DNA of 63,274 nucleotides, filler included, from Rhabdomonas costata (Eukaryota): NCBI GenBank assembly GCA_019059605.1. It is 45 parts of 45 records of this genome, joined end to end, with 100 filler letters (N's around TTAATTAATTAA, not from the genome) between each part and the next. Parts side by side here need not be neighbours in the genome. Positions count along the whole stretch, not along the records: positions 56,334 to 57,642 come from JAHMHO010019863.1; 44 more parts are not named here. One strand, written 5' to 3'. The translations under genes and the position numbers were made by a program. This document shows, in pieces, positions 5,133 to 59,150 of the stretch (positions within the stretch are counted from its first letter, which is position 1; every line of letters starts with the position of its first letter). The notes under the pieces were generated by a model. That model did not search any database. It saw only the letters and a list, made by a program, of their open reading frames with translations, and was not told where the DNA came from.

Positions 5133-7345
5133 CTGTGAGCAAATGAAGGGAGAGGGGACCTTATGGCCTGTTACTCACCATGACAGCGGGTTTTCAAACC
5201 TACCAAATCACAATCTTTGGAGCCAAGTGGGGTGAGGTGCCGCGCACACGGCCAAAAACAAGGAACACAACCATGTGCTGAATAATACAAACTTAATTCG
5301 AAATATATCGGCCCGGACATTTTTATTTCATATGAACAAACCTATGTTTTTATTTGGGCAGTGACAAAAGCAAACACTTTCCCTTCGTGCAAAATTATGA
5401 GCGACTTTCCGTACCGGTGCATTGTGGTATGCTGGCTGTGTACTGGACTTGCGTGTCTGAATTCGTGAGGTTTCTGAAGTCCTTCACGTTCCATCAAACT
5501 ACATATTGTACATGATCGCATGGTATGAANNNNNNNNNNNNNNNNNNNNNNNNNNNNNNNNNNNNNNNNNNNNTTAATTAATTAANNNNNNNNNNNNNNN
5601 NNNNNNNNNNNNNNNNNNNNNNNNNNNNNGTTTTTGGGTGCACCCACACGTGCATCTCATGGCTAGCTACAGCCTGCTGATCGCAGAAGTCTGCAATCAA
5701 TGTCCATGAATCTACACGCATTACGTGATCTGGCATTGTCCCAGACACCATTGAACACAGACAAAGACAATGTTTCCGAGGTGGAGAGAGCCCAACCACC
5801 GATTAACAAAACAACATTACGATGGCAGGTAGTCGCCAATCAGAGGGTCCAAGTGCTCGCTGTCCCTCAGAACAGCAGAGCCCCTTCTGTTCGAGCTTAC
5901 AGTTGTGCTGCCGCTCTGAGAGCTTAGCCGATCACCCTCCCCATTAGAGGACACTCCACAGGGGAAGGAAACCTGTTGACGCGCTAAAGAGTGGGTAGAC
6001 CCTGGAGAGAGCTTGTCCCAGGAGACGCTGCGCCGTGCACCTCAATCTTCTGTCTTCCTTGTAATGGCCCTCCTTTACGGAGTCTGCGTGCCGTTTTTAT
6101 GCACTTTTATTACCACCCGAGACTTGGACAGGACGTTGTGATGCTTAATGTCGGTATTGTGTTGCGAACGATGTTCCTAAGAGCGAACCTTTTGGGATCC
6201 GTGTGGGAGTCTTCAGGAAAGGGTGCTCTTGAGTTTCTTTGCTGTTGCGTATTTACCAGTGCGTTTCGATGTGAAGTCGTGTTTGTCCAGTTTTGTGTTT
6301 ATCTGTTTCCAGTTGGCGGAAAGTTGTTGTATCTTGATCATTCAAAGCGCGGGGGGTCTGCCTTTCGTGCTTTTGCAAACATTGCGGGGCGCGGAGCGTG
6401 TGTTGAGCTGAAAAGCTTTTTTCGGGGCTGTTGTCGCCTTTAGGGTTGTGGCTGTGCTGTGTCATTAATTGCGCAAATCGCGCTGCCCAAGGTCGTGGGT
6501 TGGGTCGTGAATTATGCAATTTCGGGACATCTCCGAAGTAACCACCCAGAAAAGCACAAGTGCTCACTGATGGCGACGACCGGGACCGGGGATCAATTAT
6601 GCCGAGTCATTTTTGCCATTGCTATTTATGCAGGTACGTATAGAAGCACGCACCTCGTGCATTTTTTGCACTCACAAACATACGTAAAAAGACATTCTTG
6701 GGCAGGGAGGTCGAGGTCTGTCTGATAAACAGCTGAAATTCGATTCGCTGTTCTGGAGTAAGGGGAGGGGGGCACGCAGTAGTTCCGAAGTCCATGGAAA
6801 CATTTCAAGGCGAGGGGCCACAAGCCTGCGGAAACGTTTCCATTGCCCCAGAGAAAGACTCTGTACTTTTTTTTTTCGTTCGTCTCCCACCTGCTTCGGG
6901 TTTCCCCGATGCACCGTGCATTTGGTCTGCCACCCAACNNNNNNNNNNNNNNNNNNNNNNNNNNNNNNNNNNNNNNNNNNNNTTAATTAATTAANNNNNN
7001 NNNNNNNNNNNNNNNNNNNNNNNNNNNNNNNNNNNNNNGGTGTGGGGGGTGGGATGGTGATTTGAAAATTTGAGCGGCAGGTTTTCTTTTTCTCGGACAG
7101 CATTTCACTCTGTCCAAGAAAAAGAAGTGCAGCAATGTTACCGGGCAACCAAACCTGCAGGGTGAAGGAAACGTTTGTGCCTTTTTGTCTTTGTCGCGTT
7201 CGAGCCTGTGCTGCCGTCGAACCGTCATTTTTCAAGTCCGGGTTGCTGAACTCCCTGATTCTGGTTTTGGTTGAGGATTTGGGGGAAACCGGCGGCGATA
7301 TTCACGGAGCCCCTCCACCCTCGCGCACCGGTGTGCTCTCGACAG

Positions 7346-7899
7346 CAATACAACGACCGCCTGGACGACCTCGAGGCGGAGTTTGGGCAGGAGCTTGAGC
7401 GCCTGCGGAGGTCCGATCTGGCCGCCAAGGCCGAGGTGCAGCGCAGTTTGGCCAGGGCCCTGGCCAGGGACGAGGAGGAGGCTCTGGTCGTCTCCCAGGA
7501 CGTGGTACCAATCACACACACACACACACACACAGCCGCCGCACAAGGAGAATGCTAATCTGGACACCGGTAACCGACGCGCCGCACTGTGTGGGTGCCT
7601 GTGTTGAATCCTCCGCTGCGCGGAGCAAGAAGCAGCGCAGAATTAGCGACGAATGTTCTTCCAAGGGGCATCAATACCAGCCGAGCTTGATCCTGCTTTG
7701 GCTCAGTCATCTTTGTTTGGAATTGAGGTTAGTTTTGCCCCTTTGCCATGAAGTGCAATTTTTTCATGCTTGGGTGTCGCAGAACCCGGAGGAGGTTGAG
7801 CAGGCGTGGCTCGTCCGGAAGTCCGAGCTGGACCAGGAGTTTACCGAGAAGGAGACCCGAATCATGCAGACCTACTCCGGGAAGATCCAGCAGCTCCAG
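7346..7899 (+). CDS. Coiled-coil protein fragment (exons 7346-7504 and 7783-7899)
   Basis: GC3-rich, E/Q/R/L-rich exons in phase 0; the second ends CAG|GC. Confidence 0.7.
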
Positions 7900-22537: not shown

Positions 22538-23176
22538 GGTTTTGGGGGCATTCCTCTGTGTGCTGCGGGACGGCCGAAGCTGGGGCCTGCAGCGCAGAAC
22601 ATCGCCGTGCTGGTGGTGGACGATGTCGGTCTGAGGTACTTCCCGTCTCCCTCTTTCTGGGAGCTTCTGGTTGTGTCGTTTTTCTGCTCAGGGTTGTTAA
22701 TTGGTGGCTTTTGGGGCCTGGGATGTTTTGGAAGGAATTCTGTCACTGTGTGGTCAGCTATTAACCACCGCGTGATCTCGCTGAAGCTGGTGCAAATGGG
22801 TCTCACCAACGTGCAGGCCGTGAGCAGCGGGGCGGAAGCCCTGCGGCCACCCATCGGCAACCACTGCTGCAGGCAATGTTTTTCCTTCCGCTGTCTGGGT
22901 GCGATTTGAAAAAAGATGATGATGCCGGAGATGTCGGGCCTGGAGGCCACCCGCCTGCTCAAGGAGGACCCCCGGTACAGCTCCGTGCCTGTGGTCGGCA
23001 TCACGGGGAACTGCGACGCCGAGGGCACGCGAATGTGCCTGGAGGCCGGGATGGTGGCCGTGCTGGGGAAGCCGATCGACACCCTGAGGGTGTTCCAGCT
23101 ACTGCAGAGGCTGCTGGAATCCACGCCCACCGGGCCGCCATCTGGGAACCGCGATACGCTCGAGCAGACCCCTTAA
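22538..23176 (+). CDS. C-terminal response-regulator receiver domain (hybrid histidine kinase style); exons ending 22628, 22758 to about 22845, and 22916-23176
   Basis: VLVVDDV|AINHRVI..L..MG...SSGAEAL and MMPEMSGLEATRLL...VPVVGITGN...CLEAGM..LGKP. The segment with the phospho-accepting Asp was not found. Confidence 0.88.
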
Positions 23177-25816
23177 TTCGAAGTTAGACGTGGAGAATTA
23201 TGGTCATTTGTAGATGTGTGGTTCAGTCAATGGCCATCCCATCAGGTTGCCCCGCGAAAATGAATCCTTTGGCGTTCTTTTCAGTTGTCTTGCTTAGCGT
23301 TGTGGTTGGGGTCCAATCCCCCCACATGAGGTGCTTGCAGACCCTTCAGCACTCATTTTATACGAGCATCCTTCCATCCAAACGTCACATGTGCAGTCAG
23401 CGAGGAGGAGTTAGGCTTCGTAGTCACAGGTGCTTTGCTCCCAAGCGGGTTATGCACTCTTTTTCATTTTTTTGCTTTATAGAATACCTCTCTTTGCTTT
23501 GTTGTCGTGAAGGCTGTTTCTGTGCTACCGTGTGTTGCCGTGTAGCTGGCCCACCAGTGCTGAGCTTCTGCTCAACACTTCCGCGGATTTTGCGGATTCT
23601 TTACGGATTTCTTCCTTCACTGACTCAGTTGCTTTCATTCCATTTCTTGTGCTTTCCCGCACCACCTCTGCAAACATTGCAAGACAACCATGGCCCGTAT
23701 TTCATTTTGACTTTTTGTGGAGACGCGGTTTTGGACTGATTGGTTTCTCTGGGCCGCCGAAAACTTATGAGCGCTCAACCGCAATCAGCAGCCGCGGCCG
23801 GTGCTTCGGTTCTGTGAGTGCATATTTTCTAGTCCACCAACACAACNNNNNNNNNNNNNNNNNNNNNNNNNNNNNNNNNNNNNNNNNNNNTTAATTAATT
23901 AANNNNNNNNNNNNNNNNNNNNNNNNNNNNNNNNNNNNNNNNNNNNGGGGCCAATAAAAAAGAAAGTGGCTGCAGACCCTAAAGAGCAGAGGGAAAACTG
24001 GGGGGCCAATAAAAAAGAAAGTGGCTGCAGACCCTAAACTAGATGCCTTTTTGTTGCTCGCAAGGAGGTACTTATGGCACTGCTCCCTTCCTTAAACGCA
24101 ACTCTGAAAATATGCGAGGGCCTGACCATTGGACATTGCATTGTTTGCGATGGGGGGGGGGAGTCCATTGCTCGATCCATTTGTGGATCACTACCCTGGC
24201 ACGGCAATTCTACCCGTTTGAGCGGTTACATTAGGTGAGGTGAGGCCGGTCTGAACCTCACAGTGTCATGGTACCTCTGTAGATCCAAGAATTTGAGGGG
24301 CAAAGGGGCGCAGAAAGAAAATATTAAAACTCATACTTCAATCTGTTTCTGCACCTATGAAAATATCGCGATCCTCAAAGCTCTACACGACACATGAACA
24401 GGGTTCCAGATCCAGATTCCAAAATTCGGGAGAAGATGCAAGATGACAGAGAGCATATGCAGCATCTCGGTGTGAACACACAGCCACCGAAAAGTTCCCA
24501 GAAAAAGAGAACGTGATTGATCAAAAACACCCGTGGCGCGGTTAGAACCTCTGCCGGTCAGCCGCCTGACTCTGCGCGAGGGGCTCGAACAGGACACCCT
24601 GCTTGGCCGCTCGGTGCATTTGCTTGTTGTATAGGGACTTGTAGAAGTGATATTCGTGGGTCGAAGCTGCGACATAGGAAGCCAAACCCCATGCCCACTG
24701 CGAGTCCTATTATTTGTCTGGGCCTGTCTACATTTCGGAAAACGGCACGAGAACATACAGCAAAAAAGCAGCAACCACTGCTCCCCACCTTTCAAGGTAT
24801 GCACGATTTTGCCTTAACCCATGAGGTCTCCACAAAAAAATTCGTCTGATGGCTGACGGATACCATCGGTCAGGATTCACCCAATTCTGCTTAATCTTGG
24901 AGGGAGAGTGGAGGTAGATGCATTGCGTTAAGGTCATACGTTGCCCAGCAGTGGTCTTGAGCTCGCCCGGATCCAGAAGGATGTCCTTGTAAGCAGCTGC
25001 AGCAAGAAACCCAACTCGCTCCCATTTAAATGAACCAGGAAGCAAACTATTCACTTTTTTTCCGCCACTTCCTTCACGCACTTCTTTTTTGCCTTTAAAC
25101 TGGTTTCGGATCAATTTCCATTTCCCATTTCAAACGCAGCGTACGTTACTGCGGACTAAAATGCCACCGTGGCGTTCGCGCAGTGAAGTGCAGACGAGGG
25201 ATACCTCCGAGTTCGACGGAAATAACTTCACAGGGAAGCATGATACCCAAACAAANNNNNNNNNNNNNNNNNNNNNNNNNNNNNNNNNNNNNNNNNNNNT
25301 TAATTAATTAANNNNNNNNNNNNNNNNNNNNNNNNNNNNNNNNNNNNNNNNNNNNTTTTGGGGGTGCAATGACAAAATAATCAAAAACAACACAAAGTCA
25401 TCACCTCGCATAGCTCATATCCATATGGAGAGGGGAAGGTGAATAATCCACAATCGGAAATTAACCGGAACCAGCTGAGTATAACTTTTCAGGTGAGTTC
25501 GATAGTAACTATAGTGGTTCAATAATAATTTTTGTATTAGTTGAAATAGTGGGGGGGGGGGCGCCTAGCCTACTGCACATAGCCCTCCCCTCCCCTCTAT
25601 CTGTCACACACACACACACACACGCTTCAACCAGGCAACAGCCAGCGCGCAATGCGCCCAACACACACACGCACACGCTCCGAAGGTACCTCTCGCAAGC
25701 ACCCGTGGCCAGCAGCGGGTGCGCCCGTCAGTCCACAGCGGTCAATATAATAAATAGCAATAGTCAATCAGGCAACAGCCAGCGCGCCCAACACACGCGC
25801 ACACACATGCGCCCAG

Positions 25817-40720: not shown

Positions 40721-43700
40721 GAGTCTCACCCCTAACCCACACCNNNNNNNNNNNNNNNNNNNNNNNNNNNNNNNNNNNNNNNNNNNNTTAATTAATTAAN
40801 NNNNNNNNNNNNNNNNNNNNNNNNNNNNNNNNNNNNNNNNNNNGTGGGGGTGGGGGTGATGCGGGTTTTTCAAGTATGGTCTGACCTCCCGGATAACCAA
40901 AGCTGCCTGCCTTCTAGATTTATGCATCGAATCGAAAACTTGCCAGTAGCGTTATCCTAGGGTTGGGATCAGGGTTGGGGTTAGCTAGTGTTCTTGGTGA
41001 CCTCCAACTAACCCTGAAAGCCTCAGTGTAACCCCAACCCCGGTCTCAGCAGAGAAGGAGTAAGTGCGTTAGCCTCGACAATATGGTTGGAAAAAGTGAA
41101 AACACTGCACTTGTGTTTTCGTCTTGTGCTGGCATCTCTTCGGGCACGCTTTGTTGTTGTTGCTATCGGTTCCTGGACAGCGACCGATGCAAGAGTTGCT
41201 GGTCAGCTTTGCTTGTGGAGCACCTTCTAATCAGCCATTTAATAGAGTATGACGTGGGCGACTGATTGATGTGTGTCTCCCAGGGATGGTCCTTGTTTCC
41301 GCCCCTCCGTGGGTCTCTGACTTGGACCGCGCCAACGCGTTGGCGATGGAGTACAGAATCAGGTCTGTTTGCTTCATGAACGTTTTCTCCCCATTGGCGT
41401 ATTATGTTGTCGTCTCCTTGGGGGTAACGGCATATCTGTGGATCGGAGGAATATTTTTCTGCGTTTCAAGTGTCTAAAAAAGCACAGGCAACCTTTTATG
41501 AAAACGTACAGTTATTGCTCGACTCCAAGATTCCACACCAAGCAACATAAAGCAAAAAGGGGCATATGTCCTTCCCTCCTCCTCCACCCCCTTCAAGTTT
41601 CTTTTTGCCCCTCTACCACCACCACCCTGGTTCCACACAGCTTTTGTCATTAACATGAGAGTATCTGTTGACAGGTCGGAAAATGAAAGACCAGACATCA
41701 GGGGGAGAACTGAAGAGCCAAACGAAAAAGTGCCTCTTCCCCGTGCATGCATCCTGGGGCTCCCGCCCTCCCACACGTGCATCGCCTTCTAACCTCATGC
41801 AAATCTTTATCCCAAACATATCCTCAGCAACCTTACTGGTGCAATGGAAAGCCTCCACCCAGAGAACCCGTTTGCGAAGACTTCAAGATTTTTGTCTGGA
41901 AAAACCCTGCGACAGATCACTTCGAATAAAAGGACTGCAAAGAATTCAAATTCAAAGGAAAGCGGAAATGAAGAGACAAGAAGCCATTCGGTCAAGCAAA
42001 ATAAACATAAGCATTGGTGCGCTACACTATGCGCTCGCAATTTTCGCAAAATATGGATTTTTTAATACACGGCCCGTTTTCACCTCAGACTCCTTGTGTA
42101 CCCCTGGGGTACTCCGAGCAGGCTGCCAACCCCTGCAGCCTAACCAACCCCNNNNNNNNNNNNNNNNNNNNNNNNNNNNNNNNNNNNNNNNNNNNTTAAT
42201 TAATTAANNNNNNNNNNNNNNNNNNNNNNNNNNNNNNNNNNNNNNNNNNNNTGTGTTGGGTGTTTGGGGTTGGGTGTTCGGTCCTGTTTGCGTTTTGAAG
42301 TGTGGGTCTGGGTGTCAATGTGTGCGTATGAGGTGTTGGGGATGATTGATTGGTAATGTTCTAAGTGGTTTCTGCCGCTGATGTCTTTGGAAGTTTGGTT
42401 GCGTGTTCGGTTGCTGCGTTTGTTGTGCTGGGTGTACTGGTAGGCTTACGGTTCTGGTTGGGTCTGTTTGGTCTGCTGTTTGCATGGGTGGGTATTGTGT
42501 CGCTTTCTGTGTTCTGATTTCGGTGTTTGGTTTCTGTACTTCCGCCTAGGTTGTGGTGTGGCGTAGTACTGGTGCGGTTTTCGTGAAGTTGTGGTGTACG
42601 GGTTTGGAGCTTGTAGTGTGGGTGCGTAGTGTGTCTCGGTCTCGAAGCACTGTCTTTGGATGTATGGTGGTCGAAATGGAGCTTATGTGTAATGGTTGGC
42701 GGTGCTGGTGTGGTGCGTAAATTTTGGTGTATGCTTCAGGTTTGCTGAGTGGGTTTAGTGTGGTGGCTTCCTGTGTGTTGTGTTCCACTGTTGCAATCGT
42801 GACTTTTGTTGTGGGTCTTGCTGTTGTGTTAGTTTTAACATGGGTTATGGATGTGTACTTGGTGTTAACTTTGTTGGGTTGTGCGGGCACTGCGGTGCGT
42901 TTGGTGTGGCTGGTGATTTTTGCGGATGTGTTTTTCTTGGTTCAGTGTGGTGTTTGGTGCTTGTGTTGGAATTGAAGTGGTTGTTTGTCGCGGTTTTTGT
43001 TGCGTGGTTTTCTGTGTGTGATTAGTGGTAGGGTTCTGCGTTTGTTTATGTAGCTGTGGTGGATGGGCCTTCATGTTTCTGTTTGATTGACGGTCACACG
43101 GTAGTAGAGTAGTGATTATTCACGGTTTTGGGTCTTTATGTGTGTGTGTTTCAAGTTATGCGTCGCTTCCGGTTGGTTTGGTGTTGATTCATGTGCTGGG
43201 TTTGTTACAGGTGTTGCTTTTGGTTTCATTGGTGTTGCAGTGGGTTCATAGTGGTTTGTCTTCGGGGCTGTTGTGGGTGTACGGTTGCTCGTGTTTTGGA
43301 TATGTGGTAGGTCATTTGCATTTGTGCGCTGGGCTTGGACAAGGAGTGGTGTGCGTTGGTTTAGGTGGGTTTGACAAGAAGGTAGTTGAATACCAGGGCT
43401 AATAGAATGTGTGTGTTGTGATGTGGCTTCGGGGAATGTGGAGTTGTGGGATAGATGGTTCTTGACTTCGTTTCTTGTGTTCTCTCCAGTATTTCCACCT
43501 GTAGTCACACAAACTATAGGCTGTGACAAAACCACTCTAGCGTGGGTTGACCGAGTGTTNNNNNNNNNNNNNNNNNNNNNNNNNNNNNNNNNNNNNNNNN
43601 NNNTTAATTAATTAANNNNNNNNNNNNNNNNNNNNNNNNNNNNNNNNNNNNNNNNNNNNTTGTGGGTGGGTTTTGCCCATTTGCTGATGGGTGATACTGA

Positions 43701-48648: not shown

Positions 48649-50699
48649 AACCAACCGCCATATTACCAGGCATTAAGAAGCAGGTGCAAGAGTCAGGTAT
48701 GTTTTCCTTGGGACTCTGCTTAAGGACCCTTGAACGCGTGCTGACCCTCTCAATAACGCCTAAGTTTGTCGCACCCAAATCACTGACCTTTACCAACTAA
48801 AAACACAAATTTGCCCAATATTCGAACCTCAGGTTTCACCCTGCCTTGATCACAACGTGAGAGAAGAAGCTTCCGACAAGAGGCAAAGGCTCGTAGTTGA
48901 CAGGGAACTCAAGGGGAGTGAAGGGGTGGGGGAGATGATGTACAGGGAAACGAGACATTGAGATTGAGACCAAGATTGTGAGAGATGGTGGGTGTGTCCG
49001 TGAAGGAAAGAGAAGAGCTACGAGAAAGGAAAGGGACAGGAGGCAGTGAGCTGTGCTGAGAAGAGCACAACAAAGCCTATGGAGCCTCAAAACTCAAGCT
49101 CTACCACCACTCCTCCCCGCCCCCGGAAGCCCAAACCTCAGAGATCGGGGCCCCCGACAGCGATACCACAGGAGAGCAGAAAAGCACCAGGANNNNNNNN
49201 NNNNNNNNNNNNNNNNNNNNNNNNNNNNNNNNNNNNTTAATTAATTAANNNNNNNNNNNNNNNNNNNNNNNNNNNNNNNNNNNNNNNNNNNNTTGTTGTG
49301 GGACTGTTTGCGGCACACAAACTGGAACTGAAAACTACTGGTTGGATAGGTTTCGGGGGAGGGTACTCATCTGCCTTCCCACCCCAAGTATCAGTGTTCT
49401 GAGGGAATTTGGCTGCGGGTTGGGAAAGCCACAATCTCCACACGGACACATGCCGTGTCGACACTCCGAGGAATGAGCAAGCAAGCGCTGGTATCTTGAA
49501 GCTTGGTATCGATGAGCACCACACACACACACACACACTGCAATTGCAAGCTGCGGAGACAGCAACGAGAAATGGCTGGGAATTGAATCCGTTCACTGCC
49601 TGCTGATGGTGGGGTCAGCTTCTCTCCCTCCCTCTGCAGGGTATGGTCGGAGCCTCCAGGCTACGGTGGGTTCGTGCGTGAGTCAGTTGAGCCTCACGCC
49701 CCCCGCGATGCGAAATATTGAGACCCATCTGGCGGCAATGGAGCAGACCCTAAGTCCGCATCCCTCATCTCTGTCCCATCCCTCCTTATTCTCACCTTTC
49801 TCATCTTTCTCAGCTATTTTTCTGACAAACCCAAAGGCAGTAAAAATAAACCAACCCCAATTCCCTGTGACAGCCTTCAAGTGACTTTGCGAAAGCATTT
49901 ATCATGATGACAAAATGACATTCTTGCCTGCCGCCCATAAAACCTATAAACGGATGTCATTGTGCGCGCAAGTTTGAAGAAGCGTGCCATTTTACCCCGC
50001 TGTCTTTTCCGCTTTGAATTGAATTGAATTGAATTGAAGGGTTATGGCTTTTTCTCAGCGATGGTTCGGGGCGAGCTTGCCAAGTGGTCACGCTACGGGT
50101 ATTCTTCGCATTTCTTCGCTCCGATGTGTTTGCTTTATGTCTTTTTGGTTCTAAGCTTCGGATTTGACTCTGTTTGATTGTTGAGTTTTGAGCACTTCAT
50201 TGCCCGTACTTCTTCGGGCTCCGTGTGCGATGCTCAGGAAGTACAGTGGAGGCTCACTTCTGAAACTTTGGATTCGGCGTTTGCAGGCCACTGCTGAACT
50301 CTGAGGCCTCACAAGCTGCCAAGGCGACTTTGGATTACTTTGAGTCCTTCGCTCCCTTTGCGGTACTGGCTCTTCTGTTATTTCCATGTGGTGTTAAGAC
50401 TAACCTGGCGCCATGATGCTGCGGAGCGCGATCCGCAAATGCCGTATGACGGCCTGAGGTGGAAGTTGTCATACAAAGCCATTTCAAATATTCGGTCTCA
50501 GCATTGATTTTCATTGTCCCAGAGCAGAATTTAGCAGGACAGATGCGTCGCTTTAACTCCCGTCTCTCCACCTCCTTCCTTTTCAGTTACACAACCCCCN
50601 NNNNNNNNNNNNNNNNNNNNNNNNNNNNNNNNNNNNNNNNNNNTTAATTAATTAANNNNNNNNNNNNNNNNNNNNNNNNNNNNNNNNNNNNNNNNNNNN

Positions 50700-51195
50700 G
50701 GGTTGGTGGTGACAACCAGATCGGTTCTTCAGGAATGCAGGCATTTGCTGCCTCATCTGTTTTTTTTTCCGAACTCACGTCCTTCATTGCGTGTGACAAC
50801 AACATCGCAGATGCAGAACTGCACGCTCTTGCCGCTTCTAGGTTCTTTCAGAACCTGGCGACCTTGGAATTGGGAAGTAATCAACTTAGTGCTGAGGGTA
50901 TGCAGGCCCTTGCAGTTTCTCCTTTCCCAAACTCACGTCCTTGGTTTTGGGTCAGAACGAGATTGGGTCTGCAGGAATGCAAGCGCTTGCGGCTTCATCA
51001 AAATTTCCCAACCTCACATTCTTGGACGTGCATCAGAAAAAGATCGGGAATGAAGGGATTGCGGCAGTTTCCGCTTCGCCTTCCTTTCCCAAACTTGCGT
51101 CCTTAGTTGTGTTCGACAACGACATTGACGCTGCAGGAATGCACGCACTTGCCATGTCATCGTTCTTTCCGAATCTCACGTCCATCGAGGAGTGA
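50700..51195 (+). pseudogene. Intronless 28-aa leucine-rich-repeat protein C-terminus with a frameshift near 50928
   Basis: About six repeats of N.I...GMQALA.S..FP.LTSL.L; the frame switches from ORF 50735 to ORF 50941 at TTCCCAAACTCACG. A sequence error is also possible. Confidence 0.8.
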
Positions 51196-56220: not shown

Positions 56221-56413
56221 TGTACCACCAAAANNNNNNNNNNNNNNNNNNNNNNNNNNNNNNNNNNNNNNNNNNNNTTAATTAATTAANNNNNNNNNNN
56301 NNNNNNNNNNNNNNNNNNNNNNNNNNNNNNNNNAAATATTCTGCAATGCTGTAAAAGGGGTGTAAAAGGGTTGCCTTCGGGAAATTCGGGTTTCTCTCTG
56401 CTGCATTTTTAAG

Positions 56414-56936
56414 GCGCAGACGTTAACCTGGCCAGAACGGACAGCGGGACCAGCCCGCTGTACATTGCGGTGGAAAATGGGCACGTGGAGCTGGCGGAAC
56501 TACTTCTTCAGAAAGGATCGTGTACTTTTTTGGCTGACGTTGTTGGTGGTGCTTTGCTTCGTTTTGGAGTGGGAATCGGCGATCTTTCCATGGGTGCCTT
56601 CTTTGGATTGTGGGGAAGGCGCTTTGTCGCTGTTTGATTTTTGTGATGTACAGGCTGGGAGTGTTACCTGCGGATATGACGTGTATGACGTGTATAGTGT
56701 CTTATTGTTTGTGTCACACCCAGCGAACGTAATTACAGCCTCTCTGAAGCAAGGCGTGTACGTGTACTGTTTCCGAATTTAGTGGGGTGGAATCAGCGGT
56801 GCCAGCCAAGAAAAAGTATGCGTTTTTTCCATTGCAGGGGCTAACGTGAATCAGCCGAACATCGAGGGGGTCAGCCCGCTGAGCAGAGCCTCGGAGGACG
56901 GTTCCTTGGAGCTTGTCGCTCTGCTTCTCGATAATG
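56414..56936 (+). CDS. Ankyrin-repeat protein, one repeat per exon (56414-56515 and 56838-56936)
   Basis: GADVNLARTDSGTSPLYIAVENGHVELAELLLQK and GANVNQPNIEGVSPLSRASEDGSLELVALLLDN; phase-1 exons of 102 and 99 nt. Confidence 0.92.
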
Positions 56937-56986
56937 GTATTTGTGCGTCGGCAAAAACTGCGTGATGAAGGCTTTTGTTGATGTTG

Positions 56987-56994
<8 letters not shown>

Positions 56995-57018
<24 letters not shown>
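56995..57018 (+). repeat. (AC)n microsatellite; similar tracts near 7513, 25605, 32862 and 49520
   Basis: Directly visible; mostly intronic. Confidence 0.9.
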
Positions 57019-57022
<4 letters not shown>

Positions 57023-59150
57023 CCGTGAGAAGCAGGAGGTGAGAGATTTCTGGTCTCCAATCTGGCTTTGTGTGGTTGCATCAAGCCGGTTCACCTTCTT
57101 TTTCCGCTAATTCTCACTCTCTTCTCTCCCTGTGCAAACCGGTGTGTAATGGTCCATCAAGCTTGCATGCGGCTTCATCAAGAAGCGAAAGTAAAAAGCA
57201 TCGGCCCTCAGTCAAGGGGCGGAGGGTGCGACGACTCAGGCGAGCGAGCTGGTGAGTTTTAAAAGTAAAAAATAGAAGGCCCCCTTTGTAAAAAAATTTT
57301 TTTTCAAGAATCACAGTGCATGCCCGCACAGACGGGGTGCCAGTGTCCATTTGATGAGCAAATAAGCACAGACAATAAAAAAACATCTAACAAACAGCCA
57401 CCTGGTGGTGAAGAGGAGGAAACTCGTGATGCGAAGTCGGTCGCTGTTTCCGCTCTCAATAATTAGAAAAAACAAATAGCGGGCGACTGCACGGAGACCT
57501 CATATCATAGATCCTCAGAGAGTGAGAGGAAAAGTAGCTGAAAAGGGAGATGAATTGGAGATGCGCAGGTGTAGGCATAGGCGAAGTTGGCCGTTTCTGA
57601 CTGCAGGGTCCCCTTCAAAAAAAAGTGTTGAACCAACCCCCCNNNNNNNNNNNNNNNNNNNNNNNNNNNNNNNNNNNNNNNNNNNNTTAATTAATTAANN
57701 NNNNNNNNNNNNNNNNNNNNNNNNNNNNNNNNNNNNNNNNNNGGGGGGACGGGGAAGAGCGGTTTGCGCGAAAATTTGGAAGTGTAGGACACAGCCTCTT
57801 ACACACTTTCGCTCTCTTGATTTCCAAACCAAGAAAAGAAATTGACGGACGCGACCCAGGTTAGCTGGGAAGCGATTGAGGAACTGGGAAAAGTTGGGAA
57901 AATCTCTCTCTCTCTCTCTTCAGAGGCTCTACCTTCCCATGGCTTGCACCGATGAGGAACCCCGAGGGCAAGGCAAAGACCACAAACAGGCGGTCCGCGG
58001 GGTTGGCAATCAGCGAGAGCAGGATCGCACTAACCTCATATGTGCTCGCAGACATGTCAGCTTTTACCGCAGCCTGGAGGTTGGCCATCGGCATCGTGCA
58101 CTCCAGAGTCACCCGGGGGATGCCTAAGGAGAAGACGGAGAAAGGGAGCTGAATCTTTGCCTATATCGTTACTACAGCAGATTTTTCCCATTGCACCCAC
58201 TGAAAATGGGGTGCATTTTTCACTGCAGGTTTGAACTGTCCTGCAAAAGGCGGCAGGTTTGTGTCCGCATCGCAGCACTAGCGCTGACAAGGAGTTCAAA
58301 CCGACGCAACGGGAGTGAGATGGCAGCGAGGATTGTGGTTGAAGTTAGGGTTGGCTTCCTCTCCCCTTCAATCACATCTCTCAGTCCCGAGAGGCGGCGG
58401 CATTGCCGCGTTTTGTCTTCCTTGGGGCCCAAGATGTCACCTGTGTCACAGTAAGTGGTGGGCGTCCCGGAGAGGCTATTGGGGCTTCGGAGTGACGCGT
58501 CGTTTTTTGTGAACAGGGGAACCGCCTGCTTTTGGATGGGATCTGGGGTTCATCAGGCGAAACAAGCCGTAATCACTGTGGAAAAATGAACAAAAATTCG
58601 AGTTCTCGAATACAATACCAAGCCTGATCCCCGTCCCCCCCTGATATGACGGGATCTCACGTAAAGTTTTTTTTTTTTGCAAATGATCAACTTCCAATCG
58701 CAATGAAGCCTCCATTCCAAGCTCCTTTTTATTTTCAATTTGGTCATTACCTTTCGCTGCATCGCTTCATGCATTCTTCGTGCTGCCACTTCAGCCTTCA
58801 CTCGAGTGCGACACTAAAGGCTGCGAGAACGTTTGCACAACGCAGGAAGGTGGCCAGGGAAGTACGGAGGTTCGTTGATATCCGGTAGCAGCATTCCGCC
58901 TGCATTTCCCAAGCCTGTTGGAGTTGTCGGGGCGCACGCGCTCTTGGCCACACAGGTACTCGCAAGAGCCTACCTTCGGAGCGAACGATGCCGAGGGGTA
59001 GCGCAACTACCTTTTTCCAGCGGCTACCCCGCTGCTCCATTGCTGCTTGANNNNNNNNNNNNNNNNNNNNNNNNNNNNNNNNNNNNNNNNNNNNTTAATT
59101 AATTAANNNNNNNNNNNNNNNNNNNNNNNNNNNNNNNNNNNNNNNNNNNN

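What the first reader, a model, noticed from the sequence alone, without database searches (positions are those of the whole stretch)
56414..56936. Probable GA-AG intron between two ankyrin-repeat exons
Seen: exon 1 reads ...CAG AAA G|GATCGT (intron from 56516) and exon 2 starts TTGCAG|GG GCT AAC (56838). Splicing at GA gives LLLQK-G-ANVN, the ankyrin consensus, and puts the intron in the same phase-1 Gly position as the flanking junctions (AAG|GC GCA GAC and AAT G|GTATT). The nearest in-frame GT (56522, T|GTACT) would give QK-GSW-ANVN, a two-residue insertion with a poor exon end. Known: GA donors are rare outside a few lineages such as dinoflagellates. Inference: this genome tolerates GA donors when the exon ends in AG.
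Basis: partly seen in the sequence, partly recalled or inferred. Interest (0 to 1): 0.7.

Follow-up and report, generated by a model that had tools for sequence, protein, structure and literature searches.

The report
Probable GA-AG intron, euglenid ankyrin gene
Two ankyrin-repeat exons on a small contig of a euglenid protist are separated by a 322-base intron that most likely starts with GA instead of the usual GT, a rare splice-site variant already listed in this organism's published intron tables, but no RNA data could be reached to prove it.

Summary
The sequence is as described. Exon 1 (56414-56515) and exon 2 (56838-56936) each encode one ankyrin repeat. Only the join AAAG|GA...CAG|GG gives the canonical K-G-ANVN link. 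The boundary can slide by one base, so GG..CA and AT..GG give the same mRNA.

The window is a chain of 45 contigs of about 1.3 kb. Earlier scan notes and a matching contig-length series point to the euglenid Rhabdomonas costata.

That species' published transcript-to-genome table lists 90 GA-AG introns among 11,418. Five of its 26 read-verified, annotated non-GT/GC introns are GA-AG. The variant is therefore rare but on record, and this scan met one before in the same genome.

The intron fails the tests for Euglena-type nonconventional introns. Its 3' end is conventional.

A predicted 26-bp helix clamps the intron ends and covers the nearby GTs. Its excess over background depends on the settings used (0.9% with tuned settings, 6-43% with untuned ones).

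No RNA or read evidence was reachable. My odds are:
- GA-AG splicing: about 0.5
- the GT at 56522 (two extra residues): 0.2
- a dead donor, pseudogene or base error: 0.15
- structure-guided nonconventional excision: 0.1

It is a new member of a known kind, of low interest.

The parts
56334..56413 (+). 3' end of the upstream intron, cut by the contig start; it ends in a pyrimidine-rich tract and AAG
   Evidence: Sequence; contig limits.
56414..56515 (+). Exon 1: one ankyrin repeat (34 codons, phase 1 at both ends)
   Evidence: Translation. Pfam Ank 26.8 bits (cut-off 21.1) and Ank_4 26.8 bits.
56516..56837 (+). 322-nt intron in the GA..AG register; 56515-56836 and 56517-56838 are equivalent
   Evidence: Sequence. 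It is the only join that gives K-G-ANVN. Fold.
56516..56523 (+). 5' splice region GATCGTGT: GA at +1/+2, GT at +5/+6 (out of frame) and GT at +7/+8 (in frame, the rival donor at 56522)
56519..56545 (+). 5' arm of the predicted helix that closes the intron (intron +4 to +30)
   Evidence: Its excess over background is not robust.
56794..56822 (+). 3' arm of the predicted closing helix (intron -44 to -16)
56823..56837 (+). 15-nt T-rich pyrimidine tract ending in CAG: a conventional 3' splice site
   Evidence: Sequence.
56838..56936 (+). Exon 2: one ankyrin repeat (33 codons, phase 1 at both ends)
   Evidence: Translation. Pfam Ank_5 21 bits, E 4e-4, below the cut-off on its own. It is 45-48% identical to exon 1.
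56937..57642 (+). Downstream intron starting GTATTTG, with an (AC)15 microsatellite; no further ankyrin exon before the contig ends

Best explanation
This is a fragment of an intron-rich ankyrin-repeat gene of a euglenid, very probably Rhabdomonas costata. Each exon encodes one repeat, and every intron sits in phase 1 of the Gly codon that opens the next repeat.

The 322-nt middle intron is most likely removed by the ordinary U2-type spliceosome. It would use a GA donor (AAAG|GAUCGU) and a conventional acceptor (U-rich tract, CAG|G), giving ...LLLQK-G-ANVN....

Shown: the sequence, the reading frames, the ankyrin register, and the fact that GA-AG introns are on record for this organism.

Inferred:
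- that this GA site is the one used;
- that recognition is helped by the G at +1, the exon-end AAG, the GU dinucleotides at +5 to +8 (which resemble the U1-complementary GUGUG of Euglena) and the strong acceptor;
- that a predicted long-range helix which brings the two splice sites together and covers the cryptic GUs may contribute.
For: 1. Sequence, frames and phases are as described.

2. Ankyrin identity: exon 1 passes Pfam Ank and Ank_4.

3. Register, measured in 119 retrieved ankyrin proteins. The spacing from G.TPL to the next GA.VN is 23 in 241 of 297 cases and 25 in 4 of 297. G at +23 is followed at once by A.VN in 252 of 659 motifs, and by a two-residue insert in 0 of 659. The GA join gives spacing 23.

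4. The acceptor is conventional, and at exactly the position the repeat predicts.

5. GA-AG is on record in R. costata (supplement of PMC8219788). There are 43 GAAG plus 47 CTTC rows, which is 90 of 11,418 rows in Table S2. Whole-file counts are about twice those of GG-AG, AT-AG or TT-AG: 185 occurrences against 91, 82 and 92. Five of the 26 rows in Table S5 are GA-AG; these are supported by STAR read mapping and have NCBI homologues.

6. The nonconventional-intron signatures are absent.

7. GT at +5/+6 next to a noncanonical donor is a constellation reported to recruit U1 (PMC6280755, passages). The conventional 5' splice-site consensus of E. gracilis is GTGTG (PMC11170887, passages).
Against: - There is no RNA evidence of any kind. 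No near-identical transcript-derived protein exists in the protein collection.
- By its place in the contig series, this contig has no row in the published intron table.
- GA-AG is under 1% of the listed introns, and an in-frame GT lies only 6 nt downstream.
- Exon 2 alone is below the Pfam cut-offs.
- Only two exons are visible, so a decaying gene copy cannot be excluded.
- Another gene in the window (LRR gene, 50702-51192) changes frame without an intron-sized gap. So either assembly errors or pseudogenes occur in this assembly.
- The helix is not robustly above background.
Confidence: 0.5

Rival explanations
1. The spliceosome uses the GT at 56522 (CGU|GUACUU) with the same acceptor. The protein then carries two extra residues (QK-GSW-ANVN). 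The GA is just the third base of a Gly codon, perhaps the relic of an older GT donor that mutated, after which splicing slid 6 nt downstream.
For: The GT is in frame and leaves the frame open. GT-AG makes up 9,461 of the 11,418 published rows, against 90 for GA-AG. Ankyrin repeats do vary in length: TPL-to-TPL spacing is 35 in 15 pairs against 33 in 176. Exon 1 itself has 34 codons.
Against: The needed G-xx-A.VN arrangement occurred in 0 of 659 motifs, against 252 canonical. The site has U at -1 and no match beyond GUA. In the predicted fold this GU is paired with probability of about 0.96, although that helix is not robustly significant.
Confidence: 0.2
2. The donor is dead. This would be a pseudogenised or unexpressed repeat-gene copy in which GT mutated to GA. 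Alternatively, base 56517 is an assembly error in a low-coverage contig built from amplified DNA, and the real donor is GT.
For: Only two exons are visible. The contig is not matched by any row of the published transcript-mapping table, and no transcript-derived protein was found. The genomic DNA was amplified before sequencing (author contributions in PMC8219788). An LRR gene elsewhere in the window shows an apparent 1-nt frame break.
Against: Both exons are open and keep the ankyrin consensus, and both flanking splice sites are intact. Only about 5 of about 48 neighbouring contigs have any row in that table, so absence from it says little. If base errors at +2 were the main source of GA-AG calls, GG-AG should be as common. 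It is about half as common.
Confidence: 0.15
3. The intron is removed by the euglenid nonconventional pathway, which is guided by structure and probably independent of the spliceosome. On this reading it is an 'intermediate/nonconventional' intron with one canonical border. The GA then means nothing: the long-range helix defines the cut sites.
For: - Euglenids carry such introns, and seven were curated in R. costata.
- The boundary is slidable, as in most nonconventional introns (PMC12501133 section 5).
- A 26-pair helix (+4..+30 with -44..-16, -27.9 kcal/mol) closes the intron, leaving 3 nt and 15 nt free.
- The whole-intron fold has z = -2.23, with 1 of 100 shuffles as good.
- The published R. 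costata examples also have stems followed by pyrimidine-rich 3' tails of about 6-13 nt (my reading of Table S6).
- By the definition in PMC4770533 (abstract), one canonical border plus a stable end-joining structure counts as the intermediate/nonconventional subtype.
Against: - The genetically defined code N3CDG-/-CH'GN5-6|R is not met in any of the three registers.
- The 10 + U7 + 10 terminal pairing energy is 0, -1.7 and -0.5 kcal/mol, no better than random (mean -2.06).
- The Y|R...Y|R border pattern of PMC4770533 is not met: both the upstream exon end and the intron end are purines.
- All seven curated R. costata examples start GC, and none ends in AG.
- The helix is an outlier only with window sizes chosen after seeing it: 0.9-1.5%, against 5.9%, 9.4%, 34% and 43% with symmetric 50, 40, 30 and 25-nt arms.
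- A conventional GT-AG intron inferred in the window scores -20.4 on the same measure.
Confidence: 0.1

Closest known systems
GA-AG introns listed for Rhabdomonas costata (Soukal et al. 2021, PMC8219788, Supplementary Tables S2, S3 and S5)
   Same: Probably the same organism. The boundary dinucleotides are the same. It is the commonest single class among the read-verified, annotated non-GT/GC introns (5 of 26), and there are 90 of 11,418 rows overall.
   Different: Those cases rest on transcripts; this one rests on protein consensus only. The paper tabulates them but does not discuss them in the passages and section I read.
[quoted passage not shown]
   Same: A GA donor after an exon that ends in AG, together with a normal AG acceptor.
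   Different: In those animals GA-AG is more frequent than GC-AG, and the GA is followed by a conserved A. Here +3 is T, and in R. costata GA-AG is seven-fold rarer than GC-AG (90 against 634 rows).
The GA 5' splice site of human FGFR genes, and noncanonical donors helped by a neighbouring GT (Brackenridge 2003 as cited in PMC7072748 and PMC6280755; the original was not held)
   Same: A GA donor with a canonical GT 6 nt away, and a GT at +5/+6 that could recruit U1 before cleavage at the noncanonical site.
   Different: In FGFR the helper GT lies upstream of the GA; here the GTs lie downstream. No experiment exists for this locus.
Euglenid nonconventional and intermediate introns (Milanowski 2016 PMC4770533; Gao 2024 PMC11170887; Nomura 2025 PMC12501133)
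   Same: Same lineage. The boundary is slidable, the intron's first base and the next exon's first base are purines, and a predicted structure brings the ends together, with pairing that starts at +4.
   Different: There is no CDG/CH'G motif. The 3' partner lies at -18..-16 instead of -8..-6. The 3' end has a conventional pyrimidine tract and CAG. The borders do not follow the Y|R pattern (sequence).

Membership tests
U2-type spliceosomal intron, GA-AG subclass | AG at the 3' end preceded by a polypyrimidine tract | tested here: met
   The intron ends TTTTTTCCATTGCAG at 56823-56837.
U2-type spliceosomal intron, GA-AG subclass | G at +1 and A at +2, with the exon ending in AG | tested here: met
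   AAAG|GATCGT. However, the registers GG..CA and AT..GG give the same mRNA.
U2-type spliceosomal intron, GA-AG subclass | Removal at these exact boundaries seen in RNA | not testable with these tools
No genome is held. No transcript-derived protein was found. No row of the published intron table could be matched to this contig.
U2-type spliceosomal intron, GA-AG subclass | Branch point and lariat formation | not testable with these tools
   No branch-site consensus for this species was available to me.
Euglena nonconventional intron (Nomura 2025 code) | 5'-N3CDG-/-CH'GN5-6|R | tested here: not met
   All three equivalent registers fail at both ends. Only the purine at the start of the next exon is met.
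Euglenid nonconventional intron (Milanowski 2016 features) | Pairing of +4,+5,+6 with -8,-7,-6 | tested here: not met
   The 10 + U7 + 10 fold gives 0, -1.7 and -0.5 kcal/mol for the three registers; the random mean is -2.06. In the predicted helix, +4..+6 pair with -16..-18.
Euglenid nonconventional intron (Milanowski 2016 features) | Pyrimidine at the upstream exon end and at the intron's 3' end; purine at the intron's 5' end and at the next exon's start | tested here: not met
   The two purine positions are met. The two pyrimidine positions are not, in any register (sequence; criteria).
Euglenid intermediate intron (intermediate/nonconventional subtype) | One canonical border plus a stable RNA structure that brings the intron ends together | tested here: inconclusive
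   The canonical 3' border is present. A 26-pair helix is predicted. Its excess over random pseudo-introns is 0.9-1.5% with tuned arm lengths but 5.9-43% with untuned ones.
Ankyrin repeat (Pfam PF00023 and clan) | Profile match above the curated cut-off | tested here: met
   Exon 1: Ank 26.8 bits (cut-off 21.1) and Ank_4 26.8 bits (cut-off 22.7). Exon 2 alone: Ank_5 21 bits, below its cut-off of 27.
Rhabdomonas costata draft assembly (organism attribution) | Agreement with the published assembly | tested here: inconclusive
   The window's contig lengths (1310, 1310, 1300... 1309 at the 17th) fit NODE_21038, 21040 and 21054 of Table S2. NODE_21074 (1308) does not fit at the same offset. The 17th contig carries a + strand spliced gene with at least one GT-AG intron, as that table predicts, but I could not place the second. 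The species name itself comes from earlier scan notes.

The most novel reading that the evidence does not exclude
GA-AG introns of Rhabdomonas might form a helix-clamped class lying between conventional and nonconventional introns. In such introns a long-range stem starting at +4 would bring the 5' site next to the pyrimidine tract and hide nearby cryptic GUs. That would let the spliceosome, or the nonconventional machinery, cut at a GA. It would be a living intermediate in the conversion between the two euglenid intron types. An earlier first-stage note on another GA-AG intron of this genome also spoke of end pairing (e1-7141488), but I could not see that sequence.
Probability: 0.1. Interest if true: 0.55.

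Novelty: new member of a known kind. Interest (0 to 1): 0.2.

Why it matters
Practically, gene models for this euglenid must allow GA donors. A GT/GC-only predictor would here add two wrong residues or break the gene.

Biologically, euglenids are the lineage where conventional and nonconventional introns coexist. GA-AG is the commonest of the boundary classes I counted among the non-GT/GC rows of the R. costata tables, yet it is not discussed in the parts of that paper I read. Two full-text searches found no paper that discusses GA-AG introns in euglenids.

A systematic look at those 90 introns could show whether they are plain spliceosomal variants or something between the two intron types. 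This single locus, without RNA data, cannot decide that.

Tried and rejected
1. My first guess was a dinoflagellate genome, based on recalled GC/GA donors and a G after the acceptor. I dropped it after the earlier scan notes and the contig-length series pointed to a euglenid.

No genome is held.

3. I looked for a transcript-derived protein. Searching with exon 1 among longer proteins gave 119 hits from 160 candidates, all generic ankyrin proteins; the best was 76% identical over 53% of the query. Among proteins of similar length there were 4 candidates and none significant.

4. I tried a census of real introns in the other 44 contigs, to get a species-specific 5' splice-site profile and a helix background. 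Pfam on 150 of the 709 ORFs of at least 50 aa (contigs 1-10) gave one weak Torsin hit. A further 46 ORFs gave one receiver domain and one LRR gene. I abandoned this as too low in yield; 513 ORFs were never scanned.

5. I looked for paralogous ankyrin exons or copies of the intron within the window. There were none beyond the two exons and (AC)n matches.

6. Rfam on the whole window found nothing at gathering thresholds.

7. A U12-type intron does not fit: none of the three registers is AT-AC.

8. The second GT-AG intron that Table S2 predicts for the contig I equate with NODE_21054 could not be placed. The original FGFR paper was not held.

Full report
WHAT THE WINDOW IS. The 63,274-base window is not one locus. 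It is 45 contigs of 1,300-1,310 bases joined by linkers of 44 N, TTAATTAATTAA and 44 N. The finding lies on the 41st contig, 56334-57642 (1,309 nt). That is all the context there is.

THE OBSERVATION. One search shows the bases exactly as described. The upstream acceptor is tttttaAG|GC at 56413/56414. Exon 1 runs from 56414 to 56515 and ends CAG AAA G. The next bases are GATCGTGTAC. A T-rich tract and TTGCAG end at 56837. Exon 2 runs from 56838 to 56936, and its donor is G|GTATTTG.

The two exons translate to one ankyrin repeat each. Exon 1 alone passes the Pfam Ank and Ank_4 cut-offs. Exon 2 alone scores 21 bits on Ank_5 (E 4e-4), below the cut-off. The two exons are 45-48% identical to each other, and nothing else in the window resembles them. 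All three junctions are in phase 1 of a Gly codon.

One thing was missed: the join is slidable. Introns 56515-56836 (GG..CA), 56516-56837 (GA..AG) and 56517-56838 (AT..GG) give the same mRNA.

ALTERNATIVE JOINS. I listed every GT, GC or GA donor and every AG acceptor that keeps both exon frames open. With the strong acceptor at 56838, the GT donors are:
- 56522, which adds two residues (GSW in place of G);
- 56546, 56549, 56561 and 56594, which add ten or more non-ankyrin residues.

The GT at 56520 is out of frame.

To weigh GA against the GT at 56522, I used the 119 ankyrin proteins retrieved with exon 1. The distance from a G.TPL motif to the next GA.VN motif is 23 in 241 of 297 cases and 25 in 4 of 297. 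Of 659 G.[TS][PA]L motifs, 252 have G at +23 followed at once by A.VN-like residues. None has the two-residue insert that the GT reading needs. The GA join gives exactly the canonical spacing. So the protein side favours GA by roughly two orders of magnitude, provided the gene is functional.

ORGANISM AND WHAT IS ALREADY ON RECORD. I first thought of a dinoflagellate. Earlier notes of this scan name the genome as the colourless euglenid Rhabdomonas costata.

I checked this against Soukal et al. 2021 (PMC8219788; passages, section 7 and supplementary file 6). The window's odd contig-length series (1310, 1310, 1300, then 1309s) fits NODE_21038, 21040 and 21054 of their Table S2. NODE_21074 does not fit at the same offset. 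The contig I equate with NODE_21054 does carry a + strand spliced receiver-domain gene with a clear GT-AG intron (22619-22757), but I could not place the second intron the table lists. The attribution is therefore probable, not proven.

On that numbering the finding's contig falls between NODE_21074 and NODE_21086, where the table has no rows. The only 1309-nt contigs listed are NODE_21009 and 21054. So no published transcript mapping covers it. Only about 5 of about 48 neighbouring contigs have any row, so this absence says little.

Table S2 has 11,418 transcript-inferred introns. Of these, 43 are GAAG and 47 are CTTC, which makes 90 GA-AG rows, or 0.79%. For comparison there are 9,461 GT-AG and 634 GC-AG.

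Whole-file occurrences, where most rows appear in both S2 and S3, are:
- GA-AG: 185
- GG-AG: 91
- AT-AG: 82
- TT-AG: 92

. GA-AG is thus about twice as common as comparable one-off classes.

Table S5 lists 26 introns with non-GT/GC boundaries that were supported by STAR read mapping and lie in genes with NCBI homologues. Five of them are GA-AG, more than any other class. The authors' seven curated nonconventional introns (Table S6) include none of these. The passages and section I read do not discuss GA-AG. Two full-text searches found no paper discussing GA-AG introns in euglenids. An earlier follow-up in this scan reached the same view for another GA-AG intron of this genome, in a DHHC gene (e1-7141488).

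IS IT A NONCONVENTIONAL EUGLENID INTRON? Euglenids also have introns that need no GT, so this rival matters.

- The genetically defined Euglena code, 5'-N3CDG-/-CH'GN5-6|R (PMC12501133, abstract and section 11), is not met in any of the three registers.
- The terminal-pairing test of Gao et al. (PMC11170887, passages) gives 0, -1.7 and -0.5 kcal/mol. Random pseudo-introns average -2.06.
- The Y|R...Y|R border pattern of Milanowski et al. (PMC4770533, section 8) is not met.
- The 3' end is a conventional T-rich tract plus CAG.

On these grounds the intron is of the conventional kind, with an odd donor.

A PREDICTED CLOSING HELIX. Folding the intron gives -106.9 kcal/mol, with z = -2.23 and 1 of 100 shuffles as good. 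The fold is closed by a 26-pair helix between +4..+30 and -44..-16. It has 10 G-C, 9 A-U and 7 G-U pairs, and an energy of -27.9 kcal/mol against -21.7 on the opposite strand. The helix leaves GAU free at the 5' end and the 15-nt pyrimidine tract free at the 3' end. It covers both nearby GUs.

In the 523-nt exon-intron-exon context the sampled pairs have probabilities of 0.65-0.999. In that fold the pyrimidine tract is itself predicted to pair with exon 1.

This looked like the 'intermediate' introns of euglenids, but the statistics are soft. With arm lengths chosen after seeing the fold (30 and 45 nt), 1.5% of 4,000 and 0.9% of 2,000 random 322-nt pseudo-introns do as well. With symmetric arms the fractions are:
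- 50 nt: 5.9%
- 40 nt: 9.4%
- 30 nt: 34%
- 25 nt: 43%

. A conventional GT-AG intron elsewhere in the window scores -20.4 on the tuned measure. I therefore report the helix as a feature to test, not as a finding.

HOW IT MOST LIKELY WORKS. The best-supported reading is ordinary U2-type splicing at a GA donor. The exon ends in AAG, +1 is G, +5 and +6 are G and T, and the acceptor is strong.

The GTGTA at +5 to +9 resembles the U1-complementary GTGTG consensus of Euglena gracilis. A GT at +5/+6 has been proposed to recruit U1 to a neighbouring noncanonical donor in human reporters. The FGFR GA site likewise depends on a GT six bases away (the original paper was not held). These steps are inference.

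My odds:
- GA-AG spliceosomal: 0.5
- GT at 56522: 0.2
- dead donor, pseudogene or base error: 0.15
- nonconventional excision: 0.1

The error and pseudogene rival is kept alive by three facts. The DNA was amplified before sequencing. The coverage values in the contig names of the published table are low, from under 1 to about 12 for contigs of this size. And an LRR gene in the window changes frame without an intron-sized gap.

VERDICT. It is a further example of a rare splice-site class that is already tabulated for this organism and was already met by this scan. It lacks RNA proof. I rate it a new member of a known kind, of low interest. The only open thread is whether the GA-AG introns of this euglenid share long-range end pairing. 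That needs the 90 published cases, not this one locus.

Noticed in passing
window 1-63274: The window is a pseudo-molecule: 45 contigs of 1,300-1,310 nt, roughly sorted by size, joined by N44-TTAATTAATTAA-N44 linkers. Anything that appears to span a linker is an artefact.
   Followed up: yes
window 50702-51192 (+): An RNI-type leucine-rich-repeat gene (Pfam LRR_6, E 8e-10 and 2e-6). Its repeat pattern continues from one reading frame into another near 50920-50935 without an intron-sized gap. This is an apparent 1-nt indel, so either an assembly error or a pseudogene.
   Followed up: partly
window 22598-23176 (+): A spliced response-regulator receiver-domain gene (Pfam Response_reg E 4e-9 on 22910-23173). 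It has an inferred GT-AG intron at 22619-22757. The stretch that should encode the phospho-acceptor strand could not be placed in frame.
   Followed up: partly
window 42252-43559: A whole contig with extreme strand asymmetry (GC skew 0.36, AT skew -0.43; the + strand is mostly G and T). No tandem repeat was detected.
   Followed up: partly
window 56989-57019, with matches at 7513-7538, 25605-25623 and 49520-49538: (AC)n microsatellites recur in several contigs. One lies in the intron downstream of exon 2.
   Followed up: no
window 6444-6722 (+): An ORF with a weak Torsin (AAA+) match: E 0.00099, 19.7 bits, below the cut-off.
   Followed up: no
window 56469-56479 with 56826-56836: In the 523-nt pre-mRNA fold, the pyrimidine tract of the intron is predicted to pair with a GCGGUGGAAAA stretch in exon 1. 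This is a prediction only, and I ran no control.
   Followed up: no
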